From the IMG/VR virus record IMGVR_UViG_2529293139_000012: a stretch of 12,539 bases of DNA; one strand, given 5' to 3'. Shown in pieces: positions 1,598 through 11,133 of the stretch (position 1 is its first letter; the number at the start of each line of letters is the position of its first letter). The notes below the pieces were generated by a model, which ran no database searches, was not told the DNA's origin, and saw only the letters and a list, made by a program, of their open reading frames with translations. The translations under genes and the position numbers were made by a program. The DNA is from a virus (Duplodnaviria > Heunggongvirae > Uroviricota > Caudoviricetes).

Positions 1598-1673
1598 GGC
1601 CCTTTAGCTCAGTGGTTAGAGCAGGCGACTCATAATCGCTTGGTCGTTGGTTCAAACCCAACAGGGGCCACCA
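1598..1673 (+). tRNA. tRNA with CAU anticodon, most similar to enterobacterial tRNA-Ile2 (lysidine-CAU, ileX/ileY-like); elongator tRNA-Met not excluded
   Basis: 76 nt, GGCCCTTTAGCTCAGTGGTTAGAGCAGGCGACTCATAATCGCTTGGTCGTTGGTTCAAACCCAACAGGGGCCACCA. Acceptor stem GGCCCTT/AGGGGCC pairs, anticodon loop CT-CAT-AA, T-loop TTCAAAC, encoded CCA. D-arm and anticodon arm match E. coli tRNA-Ile2 as I recall it; T-arm differs. Confidence 0.9.
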
Positions 1674-4054: not shown

Positions 4055-5968
4055 TCATGCTCCATTCGATTTCAGCAATCCACGATAATCGAGGGCCGCG
4101 ACACCTGCATCTATGCGCACCTTCCAGGCGACACCATCAACAGTAAAGCCCACCTGCTCCTCAAGATATGGCGTATCCATACCATCAAGATAAGCGACTT
4201 CTATTGTGTCCATCCCCTTAGCTGCGGCTACATACCATTCCTTGCTATTGGCCTTATCAAGACGTGGCTCAACAATTACTTCTGCCATATCTTTCACAAC
4301 GTTAATGATGCCGGGGTTCTGATTGATAGTGCCCTCATCACCAACCGGAAAGACTGATGACGATGACAGAATGGCGCGACGCGCGGCAGATTCCAGCGCG
4401 GCAGGGACCAGAACAAAAGCAGGGGTAATATTCAGTGAGTCGCCGTTAGCATCCTCCTGGAGGCGCATCAGCTTACGGGCTTCATCAAGCCCCACCATGT
4501 CCATATCCTTCGCAATAAGATTTTTATGATCGGCATGGAATAACGCTTTACCATCCGTAAACTTGCCGTTGCTGGTTAACAGGAGATAAACCAGATTGCC
4601 AACTGTTCTGGCGGCTGCGCGTCCCATCGCCATGGGGATTGTAGTTAACTGGGTCAGGTCATCGTTGATAATGGCCTGACGGGTAACGGAGAAAATATTC
4701 CCGTACGTGGCCAGCGCAATAGGTACACCTTTATCGCTGGTGGTGATGTATTTATATTCCGCACCTTCCGGTACTTTATCCAGCTTTGAAAAACCATTCA
4801 GACCAACGCGCTTTGCTTCATGAAAGTTTGAAAGCGAACCGGTACGCGTCCATTTCTGGAACGTTTCGCCGCTGTCCTGCCAGCCTTTCAGTACAGATTT
4901 TTCAGCCCCACCAGCCAGAATATGAGAAAAATCACTGCTGCTGTGTGTAAAAGCCGCATTAACAACCTGCGAGCGATTAATAAAACCACTCACAGTGATA
5001 CCACGATCAACCAGTGATGCCTGGGCCATTTCAAAAAGGCTCATCATCGCGTAAGGGTTGCCTCGTTCAGGGCGTTCATACCCAAGACGGGAATAAAGCC
5101 CCTGACGAATTGCATCACCTGTTATGTTTCCGTTTCCGGCATAGATATGAGCCGGGGTATTTTTATTGGATGGCGTGGACTCGCGCCCCAGCTCGTTCAA
5201 CAGCTTTTCACGGGCCATTTCCGGTGTACATGATGCATCTTCCAGACACGCCATTTTGATCCCGTCGTAACGACTGCCGAACAGGCTAAACACTTCACTT
5301 ATTCCATTGATGCGTTTCTGTTCATTACCAGCAATATTTGCCGCTCCCTGTGGCGGTGTAATCATTCCTTTAATGGTTTCCGGCATATGTAAAAAATCTC
5401 CTGTGCGCTTCGATTCAATTCGCGCCATTGCTCTGACGGATGGCAACAATTCATCAGCAAAACCGTGCTTAAGGCATTCTTTCCCGTCCATCCAGGTTTC
5501 ATCTTCCAGCATGGCGGTAATTTCCTGTGCTGATTTGCCCGTTTTTCTGGCATAAGCAGGGACTAACACGGTTTCCACCTTATCCAGCAAATCAGCATAA
5601 TCACGCATATCACCAGCATTTCCGCCAGAGATACCCCACGGCTTATGTATCATCATCATGGCGTTTTCCGGCATCACAACACGATCGCCAGCCATTGCGA
5701 CCACCGAAGCCATTGAAGCCGCAACACCATCGATATAAACCGTAATGTCTGCCGGATGATTCCGTAGCAGGTTATAGATGGCGATGCCTTCAAACACATC
5801 ACCACCTGGTGAATGGATCCTCAGATTGATATGTGAAACATCGCCAAGGGCTTTCAGGTCTTCCGCGAACTGCTTTGCAGTAACACCGAAGCCGCCAATC
5901 TCCTCATAGATAGATATATCCGCCGCTCCGCGAACATCCGCCGCCTTAATGGTGTACCAGCGATTCAT
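4055..5968 (-). CDS. Fusion of ClpP-like (S14) prohead protease with a major-capsid-like domain (637 aa)
   Basis: N-terminal ~200 aa carry ClpP-type motifs (IYEEIGGFG, HSPGGDVFEGIAIYNLL, IDGVAASMASVVAMAGDRVVMPENAMMMIHKPW). The remaining ~430 aa look like a phage major capsid domain, possibly Mu gpT-like; the family cannot be fixed without a search. Confidence 0.75.
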   Translation of the reverse strand: MNRWYTIKAADVRGAADISIYEEIGGFGVTAKQFAEDLKALGDVSHINLRIHSPGGDVFEGIAIYNLLRNHPADITVYIDGVAASMASVVAMAGDRVVMPENAMMMIHKPWGISGGNAGDMRDYADLLDKVETVLVPAYARKTGKSAQEITAMLEDETWMDGKECLKHGFADELLPSVRAMARIESKRTGDFLHMPETIKGMITPPQGAANIAGNEQKRINGISEVFSLFGSRYDGIKMACLEDASCTPEMAREKLLNELGRESTPSNKNTPAHIYAGNGNITGDAIRQGLYSRLGYERPERGNPYAMMSLFEMAQASLVDRGITVSGFINRSQVVNAAFTHSSSDFSHILAGGAEKSVLKGWQDSGETFQKWTRTGSLSNFHEAKRVGLNGFSKLDKVPEGAEYKYITTSDKGVPIALATYGNIFSVTRQAIINDDLTQLTTIPMAMGRAAARTVGNLVYLLLTSNGKFTDGKALFHADHKNLIAKDMDMVGLDEARKLMRLQEDANGDSLNITPAFVLVPAALESAARRAILSSSSVFPVGDEGTINQNPGIINVVKDMAEVIVEPRLDKANSKEWYVAAAKGMDTIEVAYLDGMDTPYLEEQVGFTVDGVAWKVRIDAGVAALDYRGLLKSNGA

Positions 5969-6174
5969 TGTTCCCCCACCGATGCAAAACCATTCTGATT
6001 AAGCCAGGTGTTTACGGCATGTCTGACAATCTGCGCCACACCTGGTAATGGTTGGTCAGGATGATGATTTATATGGTCGATCCTGTACTGCTTAAGGCGC
6101 ATAACGGTCTGCGCATCCAGATGAACGGAACCACCTCTGGTATCACCTGTGTTCAGGTCATTAATACAACTCAC
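5965..6174 (-). CDS. Small hypothetical protein (69 aa), translationally coupled to the protease-capsid gene
   Basis: GTG start with GAGGAAG Shine-Dalgarno upstream; its stop overlaps the downstream start by 4 nt. Confidence 0.45.
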   Translation of the reverse strand: MSCINDLNTGDTRGGSVHLDAQTVMRLKQYRIDHINHHPDQPLPGVAQIVRHAVNTWLNQNGFASVGEQ

Positions 6175-6273
6175 AGCAACTTCCTCTGACTGACTAAACT
6201 ATGCACATTATTGATCGATAAAAGTGGTAAATAAACATATTTCTATCATAAAAACAGATTAATTAGATTCAGA

Positions 6274-6299
6274 CACAAAAAAGCCGGAGAAAATCCGGC
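6274..6299 (-). terminator. Rho-independent terminator on the minus strand, upstream of the capsid operon
   Basis: GCCGGA-gaaaa-TCCGGC hairpin followed on the minus strand by TTTTTTGTGT. Confidence 0.65.
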
Positions 6300-6486
6300 A
6301 TAAATATCCCGCCATCTGAACACGTTTTGACACAGGCAACTCCACCTGGCAGGTGAAAAACAGATTTATTTATATATTTCAATTAATTGCAAACTGGTCT
6401 AATGACAGGGAGAAAAAAATATTGTACAGGTGAAAACAGAAATAACTTTTAATTATCAATAAATTATCACACATGCTGCCGCCGCC

Positions 6487-6560
6487 ATGAAAATGCAAAA
6501 ACCAGCCTTTTTCCGCGCCGTTCCCGCCCCGTGGCAGGTCACTACACCGGGAGGACCCAT
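6487..6560. repeat. Copy 2 of the GC-rich conserved non-coding element, upstream of the capsid operon
   Basis: Aligns with 3138-3220 over about 75 nt with a handful of substitutions and a 1 nt indel. Confidence 0.75.
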
Positions 6561-6582
6561 AAAAAAGCCGGATTGCTCCGGC
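6561..6582 (-). terminator. Rho-independent terminator on the minus strand, between the putative ori and repeat copy 2
   Basis: GCCGGA-ttgc-TCCGGC hairpin followed on the minus strand by T6. Confidence 0.6.
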
Positions 6583-6713
6583 TTCTGTTACTCGTTGCTT
6601 AAAACGGTATGTTATCCCCGTACGGATCATCATTCCCCGCCTGTTGTTTTGGTGTGCTTCGCTGTCATAGGCTTTATCTCACAGCAGTAAATTAAAATTT
6701 TTGCGTTTTAACC

Positions 6714-6941
6714 CTTCACCTGTTCACCTTTTGATATTTTCTCTTTTAATTCATAATGTTAAGGGGTGAGCAGTTTCACAAAAACTATTCACCAACTGTT
6801 CACCACTGTTCACCCTTGAAGCTCAATAAACAATCAAAAAGGTGAACAGTGAATAGTTTGGTGAACAGTTCATAAATAACTGTTCACCCTATAATATACT
6901 GATATAAAAGATATTTATGACAGGGTGAACAGTGGTGAACA
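6714..6941. repeat. Iteron cluster, putative replication origin
   Basis: At least nine copies of the 8-mer GGTGAACA / TGTTCACC in both orientations (6721, 6797, 6807, 6841, 6860, 6881, 6924, 6934, plus degenerate copies) flanking an AT-rich core (ctgatataaaagatatttatga), directly 3' of the primase-helicase gene. Related CAGGTGAAAA(A)CAG motifs at 6350 and 6427. Confidence 0.65.
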
Positions 6942-6955
6942 GTTATTCCATAAGT

Positions 6956-8731
6956 TTAATTTTTGCTATCGTCATTAGTGACCGATACACATGATGGCAT
7001 CCAGTCTTCTGATTCCTCCGTCAGTGTCACGTTTGAACGCAAACCGTGCTTCGTTTTCCGTTTCATATACTCCCTGCCATATTCCGCCATTGCCCCCGGC
7101 ATATCTTTACCGAAGCGCGTCAGTGTTACAGGTTTACCAAACCCATGTGCCCTCATATAAGCCAGATAGGCATGATAGAGATACCTGCGTGGGCTGAATG
7201 GCACAATTTCAGCATTACCCACTAACAGGCCATCACACATTACCGACGCCATGAGATAGCCGCAGAAGTCCACCAGCGAATCCCCCTCTCGCTTTATCGC
7301 CAGTGCTTCTTCAGATTTCTGCTGCTCATATAACAGGCGTCTGGCTTCGTCCTGGTCAGCAAACCGTGTAAGCAGATGGCGAATCACTACCGCCAGCTCA
7401 CCTTCTATTTTTTCCGCCAGCATTGGATCGCGTTCGTTCTCCGGTACAACTTCCGAAAAATTGAATATCACCCGACGACGTGAGATCCCCCCGCTGCGGT
7501 CACTGAATGACATGGCGTTATTGTTAACCGCCAGCACTACTGCCGGAATACGCGTTGAGTAGGGGGCTTTGTGTTTCGGATCAATTGCCACCTTGTCACC
7601 GCCTGTAATGGCCTTAATTCCTGCCCCATCACCAGCGTAGCGGGTCATATCCGGCATGATAATCAGCGAAAAGCCAACCACTAACGCGCGTTCCCTTGCA
7701 TCTTCCAGCGCCTTCATGCTTGCCGATACTGTGTTGGCCTTACCCGCCAGCATGGTGCAAATCTCCGCCATCACGCTTTTACCACTTCCCCCTGGACCTG
7801 TTACCTCAATGAATAACTGCCAGTCGTACCGGTTCGCCAGCACCATGAATAATGCAGCCAGTACGCGATCCGCCTTGCGGTCATTCTCAGCCACCGAACG
7901 GCGTAACCACTTCCAGAAATTCGGCGCATGTGTTGCCAGCGTTTCCCCCTCTGCTGGTGGGCTGAAAGGTAATTCACTGGCAATTAACAACCAGTCGTTT
8001 TTGTTATGCTCCCGAAAATTACCTGTTCTGGTATCAAATACCCCGTTACTGAATCCAATCAGGTTACGGGCTGTATTCCCCATAACAGGCAAACTTAACT
8101 TCATGGTATCGACCGCCGATTTAATGGCGTTCTGCGAATAGCTGATCTCCGCATCAATGAAAATCTGTGCCATAGCTCGCTGTAATTCTTTATCCTGTAC
8201 TGGCTCCCATACAACGCCGTTGTAATGGTGAACAGTGTCAGAGTCAGCATGAATCGCCAGTTCACCGCCATAATGTGCCAGGAGAACTTCGCCGCGTTGA
8301 CTTGCTCCCATCTGGTTAAGCGCCAGTGATGAAGCGTTATCGTCTTTTACCCGCTCTTTTTTCTTTACAGGCAGTTCAACTACCTTTTTCTTTTCCGCCA
8401 GCTCTGCCCGTTCACGTTCCAGATATTCGCGCCAGTTCTCCCGTTTCTGGCTGTGCATTCCTTCAGGGTAATAATCAGCATCCCTGACACCTGCCTCTGC
8501 CAGTTTCTGCCCGATGGTATTAACAAGCCCCGGACGCAATAACCCCGCCTGATAGAGACGCACGCGATAGCGTCCGTCCGGTACGATTTGCAGGTTGTCC
8601 AGTTCGGCAAGTTGTTGCTCTCCAAGCCAGACAGGTGGCACGTTATCGCCAGCCAGTCGCCCGTCCTGTTCCTGCCACTGATTCGCATGTGCCCACGCAT
8701 CACTACCCGCAAAAATGATGACTTCCGTCAT
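6956..8731 (-). CDS. Phage/plasmid primase P4-family C-terminal domain helicase (D5-like NTPase), putative replication initiator Pri-Rep (591 aa)
   Basis: Walker A 'VTGPGGSGKS' with the surrounding D5_N-like region (NFWKWLRR...YDWQLFIEVTGPGGSGKSV...VIFNF); the gene is followed immediately by the iteron cluster. Confidence 0.8.
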   Translation of the reverse strand: MTEVIIFAGSDAWAHANQWQEQDGRLAGDNVPPVWLGEQQLAELDNLQIVPDGRYRVRLYQAGLLRPGLVNTIGQKLAEAGVRDADYYPEGMHSQKRENWREYLERERAELAEKKKVVELPVKKKERVKDDNASSLALNQMGASQRGEVLLAHYGGELAIHADSDTVHHYNGVVWEPVQDKELQRAMAQIFIDAEISYSQNAIKSAVDTMKLSLPVMGNTARNLIGFSNGVFDTRTGNFREHNKNDWLLIASELPFSPPAEGETLATHAPNFWKWLRRSVAENDRKADRVLAALFMVLANRYDWQLFIEVTGPGGSGKSVMAEICTMLAGKANTVSASMKALEDARERALVVGFSLIIMPDMTRYAGDGAGIKAITGGDKVAIDPKHKAPYSTRIPAVVLAVNNNAMSFSDRSGGISRRRVIFNFSEVVPENERDPMLAEKIEGELAVVIRHLLTRFADQDEARRLLYEQQKSEEALAIKREGDSLVDFCGYLMASVMCDGLLVGNAEIVPFSPRRYLYHAYLAYMRAHGFGKPVTLTRFGKDMPGAMAEYGREYMKRKTKHGLRSNVTLTEESEDWMPSCVSVTNDDSKN

Positions 8732-8770
8732 TTTGTCACGCGGCTGGTGTTTTAAATTTGGCGCTTTTTT

Positions 8771-9064
8771 TCATTTCTGCTCTCTCCACGCGGCAATCAT
8801 GTTTTTCAGTTCCTGTAGTTTTTTATCCACACGTGACACATGGTTATTTCTGGAAGTCGGGATTTCCCGCCGGAATCTGCAAATAAAGATCTCCACGTTC
8901 AGCGAACTAAGAAATGAATATCCATCACGGATAAAATAAACACGGTCAAACATCAGTTCTTTTACCGTTACTCTGTTACCGTTCTTATCCAGATAAATAG
9001 CGCCGGGGATAATTTTGGGGTGTGCATAACCGCTGGCAGTCAAGCCAGATAAATATGTTCTCAT
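8771..9064 (-). CDS. Hypothetical protein (97 aa)
   Basis: ORF in the co-oriented gene string upstream of the primase-helicase gene; no recognisable motif. Confidence 0.4.
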   Translation of the reverse strand: MRTYLSGLTASGYAHPKIIPGAIYLDKNGNRVTVKELMFDRVYFIRDGYSFLSSLNVEIFICRFRREIPTSRNNHVSRVDKKLQELKNMIAAWREQK

Positions 9065-9070
9065 GATTAT

Positions 9071-9391
9071 TTATCCCCGATTTGAATCAGTATTCGCTTT
9101 CTTTATGGCATTTAATGCATCTGTGGCATTTTCAATGGTGCACCGTAACGAAATATCAAACTGCCCAAGCATTGCCAGTAACAAACCGATATTACCCATA
9201 TCAATGCGCATGGCCTTTTCGTCATAGTCCTCATTTTCTGACGCATGCCACATCAGGCTACCAATTGACGCAACAGCCATTGATATATTGTCAGTAGCCC
9301 CATCAGCAGCGGAATAAACCTTTTTAGCAATATCATGCTCACAGTTAAAATGCGGATTAATCAGGTACTGGTAATTTGACATATCAGGCAT
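9071..9391 (-). CDS. Hypothetical protein (106 aa)
   Basis: ORF with AGGGGG Shine-Dalgarno about 8 nt upstream of the ATG; its start overlaps the stop of the preceding ORF by 8 nt. Confidence 0.45.
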   Translation of the reverse strand: MPDMSNYQYLINPHFNCEHDIAKKVYSAADGATDNISMAVASIGSLMWHASENEDYDEKAMRIDMGNIGLLLAMLGQFDISLRCTIENATDALNAIKKANTDSNRG

Positions 9392-9587
9392 GGCACACCC
9401 CCTGACGAATACGGGCGGCGAATACCATCACGTAGCCAGCCGGGGATTGCTGGCGTGCTTCCTGTTCGCTGGTGGCCTCAATGGTAATCACGCGCGGTTG
9501 TGCCGTGCTCAGGGCGATAAAACGCCAGATGTATTTATTCAGGTCGTGCGAGTACCGCCCTTGCGGGTGTGTGGTATGATTTAACAT
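9384..9587 (-). CDS. Hypothetical protein (67 aa), first gene of the leftward small-ORF and primase string
   Basis: Start taken at ATG 9585-9587 with GAGGT Shine-Dalgarno 5 nt upstream. The longer 221-aa ORF-track form would run antisense through the divergent gene and operators. Confidence 0.45.
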   Translation of the reverse strand: MLNHTTHPQGRYSHDLNKYIWRFIALSTAQPRVITIEATSEQEARQQSPAGYVMVFAARIRQGVCHA

Positions 9588-10407: not shown

Positions 10408-11133
10408 CTATTGGGGGTGAACAAGCTCAAACGAAGAGTATTTATCAGGCTTTGGTGGTTGTGCCCCTGATTCTTTAATCCATCTATCTAGCGTGTTTTT
10501 ACTTACTTTCCCATGGTAGTAAACAGAAAGCTCGTTCAATAAACCTGTTTTACTGGCTTTAGGGTACTTTTCCCATGTTAGTTTAATTACGTGCATAACT
10601 TCATTGTAATAATGATTTCTTGGTTTGCGCGCTTTTTCTTTCTGTGATAAGGATAAAGCATCCTTTATTTTTTTATCTTTTTCATGGTTCGATATAATTT
10701 CTTCAAAAAAATCATTAAGCAATAACTCAACACCAACTCTAGTAAGTTTGTCTGCGTGATTACGCATTCCGACATGGTACAATGCAACTGCTGAATTTAA
10801 AGTATCGACAACCTGACAAGATAGTTTACTATCAAATATTAAAAAACCACACGAATCAATTTTTGCAGCTAATTCAATAGGATATTGCTCGATTTCACTT
10901 GATTCTAAACCATAACACAAAAGAAATTCTCTTGTTGGATATTTTGATTTATAAAAATAATCTCTTATATCATCAATCAAGCGTTTTATAGCCTCTATGG
11001 TGGAGTTTCTCGGGGATAAAGATACAGGAACGTTTAAAACTGAAGATTCTCGCCCACCAGTAATTAAATCATTCATAACCGAATAAATAATATATTGTTT
11101 GACCGATATATTGTTATCATCCATATATGTCAT
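10408..11133 (-). CDS. AT-rich hypothetical protein (241 aa), candidate accessory/cargo gene
   Basis: ORF overlapping the integrase 3' end by 17 nt. Visibly much more AT-rich than the island genes on either side, with Lys/Asn/Ile/Tyr-rich codon usage. No recognisable catalytic motif; the C-terminus (KNTLDRWIKESG) may be HTH-like. Confidence 0.55.
   Translation of the reverse strand: MTYMDDNNISVKQYIIYSVMNDLITGGRESSVLNVPVSLSPRNSTIEAIKRLIDDIRDYFYKSKYPTREFLLCYGLESSEIEQYPIELAAKIDSCGFLIFDSKLSCQVVDTLNSAVALYHVGMRNHADKLTRVGVELLLNDFFEEIISNHEKDKKIKDALSLSQKEKARKPRNHYYNEVMHVIKLTWEKYPKASKTGLLNELSVYYHGKVSKNTLDRWIKESGAQPPKPDKYSSFELVHPQ

What the first reader, a model, noticed from the sequence alone, without database searches (positions are those of the whole stretch)
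6714..6941. Iteron-type origin directly downstream of the primase-helicase gene
Numerous GGTGAACA/TGTTCACC repeats in both orientations flank an AT-rich core immediately 3' of the Pri-Rep gene. This is the arrangement known for SaPI and PICI origins, where the initiator binds iterons beside its own gene.
Basis: partly seen in the sequence, partly recalled or inferred. Interest (0 to 1): 0.55.

Follow-up and report, generated by a model that had tools for sequence, protein, structure and literature searches.

The report
Satellite replication origin with P4-type iterons
The repeats are real and mark the replication origin of an E. coli phage satellite (a PICI), an already described kind of origin; it uses the same 8-base binding site as satellite phage P4.

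Summary
Eight exact and four degenerate copies of TGTTCACC lie in 6713-6941, directly 3' of the initiator gene (6956-8731, minus strand). Chance would give 0.41 exact copies in the whole window.

- The region is two inverted ~115-bp modules with a dyad axis near 6827. Each module is two tandem iterons, a 35-bp 80% AT spacer, one inverted iteron, then three tandem iterons.
- This is the module of the phage P4 origin. TGTTCACC is P4's annotated "ori type 1 repeat".
- The initiator's C-terminal domain matches the solved P4 alpha origin-binding domain (1KA8, E 2e-24).
- The same site layout follows the homologous gene in EcCICFT073, whose pri-rep-ori replicon was shown by experiment to replicate. 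It also follows EcCIRM13514, whose protein is 87% identical and whose iteron is the same.
- Across 72 relatives the layout is kept while the octamer changes in concert. The change tracks one segment of the DNA-binding domain.

One correction: the protein lacks P4's primase domain, so the "primase" label is not supported.

Verdict: a new member of a known kind, of low to moderate interest.

The parts
6713..6941 (.). Whole origin: 12 iterons (8 exact TGTTCACC, 4 degenerate) arranged as two inverted modules, with the dyad axis near 6827
   Evidence: It is the only such cluster in the element and in 6 kb of flanks on each side.
6828..6945 (-). Gene-proximal module. Read in gene orientation it is > > [AT spacer] < > > >. 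It corresponds to the phage P4 ori core.
   Evidence: 75 of 127 aligned columns are identical to P4 9296-9420, with the same iteron offsets of about 0, 10, 53, 74, 85 and 93. Local blastn gives 72% over 131 bases and 61 bits; shuffled queries reach at most 28 bits.
6698..6827 (+). Gene-distal module: an inverted copy of the same module, also similar to each 120-bp unit of the P4 crr
   Evidence: blastn to the P4 ori in the opposite orientation gives 70% over 126 bases and 60 bits. To the two crr units it gives 75% and 74% over 74 bases. Alignments; inverted repeats I1 and I2.
6889..6923 (.). AT-rich spacer 1 (80% AT), the most likely site of first melting
   Evidence: It holds the least stable 30-mer of the whole window. 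It lies at the same place as the AT-rich spacer of the P4 ori and of EcCICFT073.
6729..6764 (.). AT-rich spacer 2 (81% AT), the mirror-image partner of spacer 1
   Evidence: It shares the motif TTCTCTTTTAATT with the P4 crr units.
6924..6941 (-). Iterons 1 and 2 (6934-6941 and 6924-6931), exact, tandem, 10-bp spacing
6881..6888 (+). Iteron 3, exact, inverted relative to iterons 1 and 2
6841..6867 (-). Iterons 4-6: 6860-6867 exact, 6848-6855 TATTCACT, 6841-6848 exact
6786..6814 (+). Iterons 7-9: 6807-6814 exact, 6797-6804 exact, 6786-6793 TATTCACC
6765..6772 (-). Iteron 10, TGCTCACC (one mismatch)
6713..6728 (+). Iterons 11 and 12: 6721-6728 exact, 6713-6720 CCTTCACC
6956..8731 (-). Initiator gene (591 aa): a 125-aa N-terminal domain of unknown family, an SF3 (D5-type) helicase, and a C-terminal winged-helix origin-binding domain
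   Evidence: Pfam D5_N, DUF5906 and Pox_D5. 51% identity to P4 alpha residues 320-771. 87% identity to the EcCIRM13514 Pri-Rep and 48% to the EcCICFT073 Pri-Rep. The helicase core matches SaPI5 PriRep5, PDB 7OLA, at E 2.7e-10.
6995..7285 (-). Residues 483-579, the C-terminal origin-binding domain
   Evidence: phmmer E 1.8e-24 to PDB 1KA8, the P4 alpha origin-binding domain
7022..7069 (-). Residues 555-570 (YMKRKTKHGLRSNVTL), the segment that changes together with the iteron sequence among relatives. It is inferred to be the beta-hairpin wing.
   Evidence: Alignment and table. The assignment to the wing is inferred from the winged-helix topology described for 1KA8 in PMC2777425.

Best explanation
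Region 6713-6941 is the replication origin of an integrated E. coli phage satellite of the PICI type. Its gene order is int, alpA-like HTH, icd-like, DUF4222, rep, ori.

The origin carries twelve copies of the octamer TGTTCACC. They form two inverted ~115-bp modules. Each module is two tandem sites, a 35-bp 80% AT spacer, one inverted site, then three tandem sites.

Proposed mechanism:
1. The protein of the adjacent gene binds the octamers through its C-terminal winged-helix domain.
2. It assembles at the origin, by analogy probably as hexamers of its SF3 helicase domain. The dyad symmetry would allow one hexamer per module, facing opposite ways.
3. It melts an AT-rich spacer. 6889-6923 is the easiest to melt.
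4. It then serves as the replicative helicase for bidirectional replication of the excised element.
5. Because it has no recognisable primase catalytic domain, primers most likely come from the host DnaG.

What is shown here: the sites, their layout, homology of both the protein domain and the DNA module to phage P4 and to an experimentally validated PICI origin, and concerted change of site and protein among relatives.

What is inferred: binding itself, double-hexamer loading, the melting site and the source of primers.
For: 1. The repeats are far above chance and form a single cluster.
2. TGTTCACC is the annotated 'ori type 1 repeat' of phage P4, in both its ori and its crr. The gene-proximal module matches the P4 ori in sequence and in iteron geometry, and the distal module is its inverted copy.
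3. The initiator is 51% identical to P4 alpha across the helicase and origin-binding domains. It matches the solved origin-binding domain 1KA8 at E 2e-24.
4. EcCICFT073 has the same gene order and the same site layout after its homologous gene. Its pri-rep-ori segment supported plasmid maintenance only when both rep and ori were intact (PMC6092414). EcCIRM13514 has an 87% identical protein and the same iteron.
5. Across 72 relatives in Enterobacterales the layout is kept while the octamer changes in all sites at once. The variants are TGTTCACC, TGTCTACC, TGTCCGCC, TGTCCACC, TGTGCACC, TCTCTACC and TATACA(C/T)C. Each variant goes with a distinct sequence in one segment of the DNA-binding domain. 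The TGTCTACC proteins L007, L011 and L012 are about 85% identical to the window's domain outside that segment, yet carry a rewritten segment with a 5-aa insertion.
6. Within the TGTTCACC group, iteron columns are conserved more than spacers: 63 of 96 invariant against 40 of 137, Fisher p 6e-8.
7. The spacer at 6889-6918 is the least stable 30-mer of the window.
8. SaPI Reps work in the same way: an SF3 helicase, a C-terminal winged helix, 6-12 iterons just downstream of rep, and an AT-rich centre (PMC9371898).
Against: Nothing was tested by experiment for this allele.

By position, the P4 feature directly 3' of alpha is the crr, a cis-acting replication region, and not the site called ori.

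The element in this strain shows decay. In the 100% identical strain L73, DUF1441 has an internal stop and a tail gene is partial. An extra A in a homopolymer run puts the annotated rep start codon out of frame, so the ORF starts 14 codons later. The origin could therefore be idle here.

The conservation test used iteron columns defined on the window itself, and the co-variation table is not corrected for shared ancestry.
Confidence: 0.87

Rival explanations
1. The cluster is a crr-like cis-acting replication enhancer, as in phage P4. It binds the initiator but is not where replication starts; the true origin lies elsewhere in the element.
For: In P4 the iteron cluster directly 3' of alpha is the crr, and the ori lies about 4.7 kb away. 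The distal module resembles the crr units. A P4-like split arrangement also exists in Erwinia rhapontici L017.
Against: There is no second cluster anywhere in the element or in 6 kb of flanks. The proximal module has the sequence and geometry of the P4 ori itself. In EcCICFT073 the rep gene plus this downstream region sufficed for plasmid maintenance. Relatives that do carry a full P4-type primase domain (Symbiopectobacterium, Proteus, Rahnella) also have the complete layout directly after the gene.
Confidence: 0.04
2. It is an origin by descent but inactive in this strain: a relic inside a decaying island that no longer excises, replicates or is packaged.
For: Pseudogenes are annotated in the island. 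The annotated rep start is frameshifted. The hypothetical and ssb genes that follow the ori in EcCICFT073 and in the O157 element are absent here.
Against: Eight iterons are exact, and the symmetry and spacers are intact. The 591-aa ORF is uninterrupted and begins where some homologues begin, such as MTEVIIF and the Klebsiella MEEAIIF. The region is at least 95% identical in 550 of the 670 complete E. coli genomes that hold a match.
Confidence: 0.07
3. The repeats mainly serve control rather than initiation, for example copy-number 'handcuffing' or repression or termination of the rep operon by its own product.
For: Iterons of many plasmids double as control sites (general knowledge). The cluster sits at the 3' end of the rep transcript. 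One isolated exact site lies upstream of the alpA-like gene at 10416-10423.
Against: This reading does not compete with origin function. The AT-rich spacers, the P4 ori homology and the EcCICFT073 delta-ori phenotype all point to initiation. The isolated sites are not conserved in relatives.
Confidence: 0.015
4. The repeats are terminase or packaging sites belonging to the neighbouring cos-like region.
For: A cos-like segment lies 150-300 bp away. Window 6400-6529 matches the first 130 bases of phages cdtI and Tritos, and an IHF consensus lies at 6454-6466.
Against: The octamer co-varies with the initiator's DNA-binding domain and equals the P4 alpha-binding iteron. In EcCICFT073, EcCIRM13514 and the O157 element the cluster stays next to rep, with other genes lying between it and the capsid genes. 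The lambdoid phages that match the cos-like part do not match the repeat region.
Confidence: 0.005

Closest known systems
Replication origins of E. coli PICIs (EcCICFT073, EcCIRM13514; Fillol-Salom et al. 2018, PMC6092414)
   Same: The gene order is the same (int, alpA, icd-like, DUF4222, rep, ori). The origin follows rep directly, with the same twelve-site layout and two AT-rich spacers. The EcCIRM13514 protein is 87% identical and uses the same TGTTCACC iteron. The EcCICFT073 protein is 48% identical and has the same layout with TGTCTACC. The EcCICFT073 replicon was validated by experiment.
   Different: The island sits at a different chromosomal site, between a tRNA with anticodon CAT and ypjC, which is not among the att sites listed in that paper's Table S1. 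Its morphogenesis cargo differs (a ClpP-capsid fusion). The hypothetical and ssb genes after the ori are missing. This allele has not itself been tested.
Satellite phage P4 ori and crr with the alpha protein
   Same: The octamer is identical (TGTTCACC, annotated 'ori type 1 repeat'). The module of 2 + 1 + 3 iterons around a 35-bp AT-rich spacer is the same. The helicase and winged-helix origin-binding domains are homologous: 51% identity, and 1KA8 at E 2e-24. The KRxTKxG(I/L)(R/Q)(S/T)N segment is conserved.
   Different: P4 splits the sites into an ori and a duplicated crr about 4.7 kb apart. Here two modules abut as an inverted repeat. P4's type II repeats are absent. The initiator lacks alpha's N-terminal zinc-finger and Toprim primase domain.
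SaPI origins and Rep or PriRep initiators of Staphylococcus aureus
   Same: The logic is the same: a self-loading SF3 helicase with a C-terminal winged helix, 6-12 short iterons immediately 3' of rep, and an AT-rich centre with iterons pointing in opposite directions (PMC9371898). The helicase core is detectably homologous to SaPI5 PriRep5, PDB 7OLA, at E 2.7e-10.
   Different: SaPI iterons are 5-6 nt with unrelated sequences. Only the ATPase core aligns; homology of the DNA-binding domain was not detected. SaPIs carry a separate or fused primase.
Dyad-symmetric origins of viral SF3 helicases (SV40 large T antigen, papillomavirus E1)
   Same: Initiator binding sites are arranged as an inverted repeat next to easily melted DNA, and two hexamers are loaded head to head (textbook knowledge, not tested here).
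   Different: There is no sequence relationship in the origin DNA, the DNA-binding domains have a different fold, and the similarity is mechanistic analogy only.

Membership tests
Gram-negative PICI origin (Fillol-Salom 2018) | Lies immediately 3' of the replication initiator gene | tested here: met
   The first iteron starts 15 bp after the stop codon of ORF 6956-8731.
Gram-negative PICI origin (Fillol-Salom 2018) | [quoted passage not shown] | tested here: met
   Twelve sites and two 80-81% AT spacers; the least stable 30-mer of the window lies in one of them.
Gram-negative PICI origin (Fillol-Salom 2018) | The host element has the PICI gene order and unidirectional transcription (int, alpA, rep, ori, morphogenesis genes) | tested here: met
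   Annotation of the 100% identical strain L73, compared with EcCICFT073 and EcCIRM13514.
Gram-negative PICI origin (Fillol-Salom 2018) | Homology of initiator and origin to a published PICI replicon | tested here: met
   87% protein identity and the same iteron layout as EcCIRM13514. 48% identity and the same layout as EcCICFT073.
Gram-negative PICI origin (Fillol-Salom 2018) | Rep plus ori drive autonomous replication, and deleting either abolishes it | not testable with these tools
   Shown only for EcCICFT073 in the paper.
Phage P4 replicon | Type I iteron TGTTCACC in clusters | tested here: met
   The P4 GenBank annotation and sequence compared with the window.
Phage P4 replicon | Initiator with the alpha-type C-terminal origin-binding domain | tested here: met
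   1KA8 at E 1.8e-24 over residues 483-579.
Phage P4 replicon | Separate ori and crr, several kb apart | tested here: not met
   A single cluster only; two modules abut as an inverted repeat.
Phage P4 replicon | Initiator carries the N-terminal DnaG-type primase domain (zinc motif plus EGYATA Toprim) | tested here: not met
   There is no alignment to alpha residues 1-319, no Pfam or NCBIfam hit on residues 1-134, and no CxxC or EGY motif.
Phage P4 replicon | Type II repeats beside the ori | tested here: not met
   The pattern CAYTTAAAG is not enriched, and no copy lies near the origin.
Phage P4 replicon | Element carries the P4 hijacking genes (sid, delta, psu, epsilon) | tested here: not met
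   No such products appear in the annotation of the identical island. It carries a ClpP-capsid fusion instead.
SaPI origin | SF3 or MCM-type self-loading helicase with a C-terminal winged helix, and iterons directly 3' of rep around an AT-rich centre | tested here: met
   The architecture matches the description in PMC9371898. The helicase core is homologous to 7OLA.
SaPI origin | Sequence relationship of the iterons and DNA-binding domain to a SaPI allele | not tested
   No SaPI origin DNA was compared. Only the ATPase core of PriRep5 aligned.

The most novel reading that the evidence does not exclude
This PICI allele and satellite phage P4 share one origin specificity: the same octamer, the same module and a conserved recognition segment. 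P4 alpha and the PICI initiator could therefore fire, block or compete at each other's origins when both satellites sit in one cell. That would be replicon-level cross-talk between two satellite families that have been treated as independent.

A corollary is that the one-segment 'code' seen across relatives (wing sequence to central four bases of the octamer) would let origin specificity be predicted and re-engineered. A second corollary is that P4's split ori and crr would be a rearranged derivative of the compact dyad origin.
Probability: 0.35. Interest if true: 0.45.

Novelty: new member of a known kind. Interest (0 to 1): 0.3.

Why it matters
The result places this island's replicon firmly in a published and partly tested class, so the annotation "origin of replication" can be made with confidence. 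A match to the origin region is found in 670 of 5,426 complete E. coli genomes.

Three further points are new here and modest in scope.
- The PICI origin is built from two inverted copies of the P4 ori module.
- Iteron identity across Enterobacterales tracks one short segment of the initiator, which gives a testable recognition code.
- The so-called primase of these islands lacks a primase domain, which raises the question of who primes.

These points bear on incompatibility and interference between co-resident satellites, and on the design of satellite-based delivery vectors.

Tried and rejected
- **Structure of the C-terminal domain.** A single-sequence AlphaFold model gave pLDDT 38 and was unusable. 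The wing assignment therefore rests on the published winged-helix topology.
- **Primary P4 papers.** The PMC ids tried from memory for the P4 papers of Ziegelin et al. 1993 and Tocchetti et al. 1999 (PMC413647, PMC104256) are not held, and full-text searches for TGTTCACC or crr found nothing useful. The P4 GenBank annotation was used instead.
- **Iteron sequences from Fillol-Salom Fig. 2a.** These are not in the held text or supplements. EcCICFT073, EcCI042 and EcCIRM13514 were fetched and read directly. ED1a is not in the collection.
- **P4 type II repeats.** Absent.
- **Host-factor sites.** No DnaA box lies in or near the origin, and no IHF consensus lies within it.
- **Promoters and RNA families.** No sigma-70-like promoter was found in 6100-7100. 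Rfam found only the tRNA.
- **Small ORFs 6379-6633 and 6487-6690.** Neither has a Pfam hit, and neither is annotated in L73. They were treated as non-genes.
- **Rejected readings.** Chance or low complexity was rejected. A packaging role for the repeats was rejected by the co-variation and by synteny.

Full report
**Observation**

The window holds 10 exact copies of GGTGAACA/TGTTCACC. Dinucleotide-preserving shuffles give 0.41 on average and never more than 3. Eight of the ten lie in 6721-6941. Reading the sequence and allowing one or two mismatches adds four degenerate copies in register: 6786-6793 TATTCACC, 6765-6772 TGCTCACC on the minus strand, 6848-6855 TATTCACT on the minus strand, and 6713-6720 CCTTCACC.

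The cluster starts 15 bp after the stop codon of the 591-aa ORF 6956-8731 on the minus strand. No second cluster exists in the window or in 6 kb of flanking chromosome on either side. There are two 35-36-bp spacers of 80-81% AT, at 6889-6923 and 6729-6764. The stretch 6889-6918 is the least stable 30-mer of the whole 12.5-kb window.

**Anatomy**

Read in the orientation of the gene, the sites are arranged as > > [AT] < > > > [26 bp] < < < > [AT] < <. The two halves are inverted copies of each other. This shows in the inverted repeats I1 and I2 and in the alignment. The dyad axis lies near 6827. Tandem sites are 7-11 bp apart start to start; the exact and one-mismatch copies are 10-11 bp apart, roughly one helical turn.

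**The neighbouring gene**

The protein has Pfam D5_N, DUF5906 and Pox_D5 domains. It is 51% identical to phage P4 alpha protein over alpha residues 320-771, which cover the SF3 helicase and the C-terminal origin-binding domain. Residues 483-579 match the solved P4 alpha origin-binding domain, PDB 1KA8, at E 1.8e-24. The helicase core also matches PDB 7OLA at E 2.7e-10, and 7OLA is PriRep5 of SaPI5.

The same N-terminal domain is fused to a different helicase class (RepA/AAA_25) in other islands, such as EcCI042. So the protein is a helicase with an origin-binding domain, and the name "primase" is inherited from annotation rather than supported.

**Link to phage P4**

In the P4 GenBank record, TGTTCACC is the annotated "ori type 1 repeat". 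It is present in the ori (9310-9413) and in both 120-bp units of the crr (4291-4590). The crr lies directly 3' of the alpha gene.

The gene-proximal half of the window's cluster aligns with the P4 ori at 75 of 127 identical columns, with the same iteron offsets and a 35-bp AT-rich spacer in the same place. A local blastn against the P4 genome gives:
- window 6820-6943 against P4 9289-9415: 72% over 131 bases, 61 bits;
- window 6698-6819 against the same P4 segment in the opposite orientation: 70% over 126 bases, 60 bits;
- the two crr units: 75% and 74% over 74 bases.

Shuffled queries never exceed 28 bits. The origin here is thus two inverted copies of the P4 ori module. The P4 crr units are shorter versions of the same module. 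P4's type II repeats are absent.

**Link to published PICI origins**

The window is 100% identical to a chromosomal island of E. coli L73. That island is annotated int, hypothetical, HTH, YlcI, Icd-like, hypothetical, DUF4222, "DNA primase family protein", then a ClpP-capsid fusion. EcCICFT073 has the same gene order. Its Pri-Rep is 48% identical overall to the window's protein. Its downstream region has the same site layout, with the octamer TGTCTACC.

Fillol-Salom et al. [quoted passage not shown] They showed that a plasmid carrying the EcCICFT073 rep and ori was maintained only when both were intact (PMC6092414). EcCIRM13514 is one of the four Pri-Rep alleles compared in that paper. It has a protein 87% identical to the window's and an origin with the same TGTTCACC layout. 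The window therefore carries a member of the RM13514-type allele.

A match to the origin region is found in 670 of 5,426 complete E. coli genomes, and 668 of these cover most of it. It is also present in a 16.5-kb "induced prophage" record, vB_KppS-Ant.

**Comparative test of function**

A scan of one genome per species returned 72 loci encoding relatives. In the enterobacterial relatives whose downstream sites were mapped, the region after the gene holds a cluster in the same layout, but the octamer differs by lineage:
- TGTTCACC in Kluyvera, Raoultella, Pluralibacter, Citrobacter and Klebsiella;
- TGTCTACC in E. ruysiae, K. georgiana and Enterobacter hormaechei;
- TGTCCGCC and TGTCCACC in Serratia;
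- TGTGCACC in Proteus;
- TCTCTACC in Symbiopectobacterium;
- TATACA(C/T)C in Xenorhabdus and Photorhabdus.

All sites of a locus change together. The locus-specific octamer is essentially absent from the rest of each locus.

Aligning the C-terminal domains shows that each octamer class goes with its own sequence in one segment, window residues 555-570. The proteins of L007, L011 and L012 are about 85% identical to the window's domain elsewhere, but carry a rewritten segment with a 5-aa insertion, and they use TGTCTACC. P4 alpha is only about 50% identical overall, keeps KRHTKQGIQTN against KRKTKHGLRSN here, and uses the same TGTTCACC.

By the winged-helix topology described for 1KA8 (PMC2777425), this segment should be the beta-hairpin wing. 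That assignment is inferred, because my single-sequence model of the domain failed.

Within the TGTTCACC group, iteron columns are invariant more often than spacer columns: 63 of 96 against 40 of 137, Fisher p 6e-8. Two caveats apply. The columns were defined on the window itself, and the lineages are not independent.

**Mechanism**

The best-supported reading is a self-loading initiator-helicase origin of the P4, PICI and SaPI kind. The C-terminal domain binds the octamers. The SF3 helicase assembles on the origin. An AT-rich spacer is opened. The same protein then unwinds the replicon.

The dyad arrangement of two complete modules suggests head-to-head loading of two hexamers for bidirectional replication, as at the origins of other SF3 helicases. 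This step is inference.

No DnaA box lies in or near the origin. No IHF consensus lies within it. No promoter-like site is found in 6100-7100. Since no primase catalytic domain is recognisable, I infer that host DnaG supplies the primers. A cryptic activity of the N-terminal domain is not excluded.

**Rivals**

- A P4-style crr role without initiation is unlikely. There is only one cluster. It contains the ori-type module. The homologous EcCICFT073 segment suffices with rep. Relatives that do carry the full primase domain also have the complete layout right after the gene.
- A packaging role is unlikely, because the octamer follows the initiator and not the cos-like segment.
- The origin could be idle in this strain. 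The island shows decay, and the rep start is shifted by an extra A. Against that, the ORF and all sites are intact.

**Novelty and verdict**

This kind of origin is published, and a homologous allele has been validated by experiment. This copy is a further member of it.

The following appear to be additions made here. I did not find them stated in the papers I could read, and Fillol-Salom et al. stress instead that PICI Pri-Rep proteins differ from alpha.
- The octamer is identical to the P4 type I iteron.
- The PICI origin is two inverted P4-ori modules.
- A single segment of the protein co-varies with the site.
- The protein lacks a primase domain.

Later work already notes that P4-like elements and PICIs share int, AlpA and primase-replicase components (PMC10085698). 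Interest is low to moderate.

Noticed in passing
window 6400-6558: A cos-like segment lies about 150-300 bp beyond the origin. Window 6400-6529 is 92-94% identical to the first 130 bases of the linear genomes of lambdoid phages cdtI and Tritos, which puts the phage end at about 6529. Bases 6487-6558 match near the other end of the mEp460-type records. The only IHF consensus in this part of the window is at 6454-6466. This looks like the helper-type packaging site of the island.
   Followed up: partly
window 8766-8772: The window has a run of 7 A where strain L73 has 6. This puts the start codon annotated in L73 out of frame. The short frame stops at 8738-8740 and the long ORF restarts at the ATG at 8731, losing 14 N-terminal residues. 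It could be a real slippage variant or a homopolymer sequencing error. The window is 2 bases longer than L73 overall.
   Followed up: partly
window 8357-8731 (protein residues 1-125); L079 6425-7825: The 125-aa N-terminal domain (TEVIIFAGSDAW...) has no family assignment. It is shared between two unrelated initiator helicases of E. coli PICIs: the D5/SF3 type here, and the RepA/AAA_25 type in EcCI042. The origin of EcCI042 uses different repeats, AAAGTGAGG-like. A module kept across helicase classes suggests a common partner, such as a host primase, SSB or a regulator.
   Followed up: partly
[not shown]
   Followed up: no
window 4055-5968: The island encodes a 637-aa ClpP-like prohead protease fused to an HK97-type major capsid protein. 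In the annotation of the identical strain there is no portal or terminase, and a partial tail gene and a DUF1441 pseudogene lie next to it. This is either a capsid-redirecting cargo or a decayed capsid-forming island.
   Followed up: no
window 8227-8234, 8259-8266 and 10416-10423: Isolated iteron copies lie outside the origin. One exact copy lies inside rep (codons TVHH), with a one-mismatch inverted partner 24 bp away. Another exact copy lies about 150 bp upstream of the alpA-like HTH gene. Relatives with the same iteron have no such extra sites within their loci, so these are probably chance.
   Followed up: partly
window 6566-6583 and 6283-6299: Two similar GC-rich hairpins (GCCGGA...TCCGGC) are each followed by a T run on the minus strand. 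The second was called terminator-like. The first, read from the sequence, would end the rep transcript after it has crossed the origin. In P4 the terminator lies between alpha and the crr.
   Followed up: no
L017 (Erwinia rhapontici) 52-137 and 6508-6603: A P4-type 773-aa initiator has no iterons directly after the gene. Its TGTTCACC clusters lie about 1.8 kb upstream and about 2.1 kb downstream, a split arrangement like P4's ori and crr. Other relatives with full-length primase domains (Symbiopectobacterium, Proteus, Rahnella) keep the compact origin.
   Followed up: partly
window 1598-1673: The tRNA gene at the island's far end has anticodon CAT. ARAGORN calls it tRNA-Met, while RefSeq annotates the identical gene as tRNA-Ile. 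That would fit a lysidine-modified tRNA-Ile2. It is the likely integration target.
   Followed up: no
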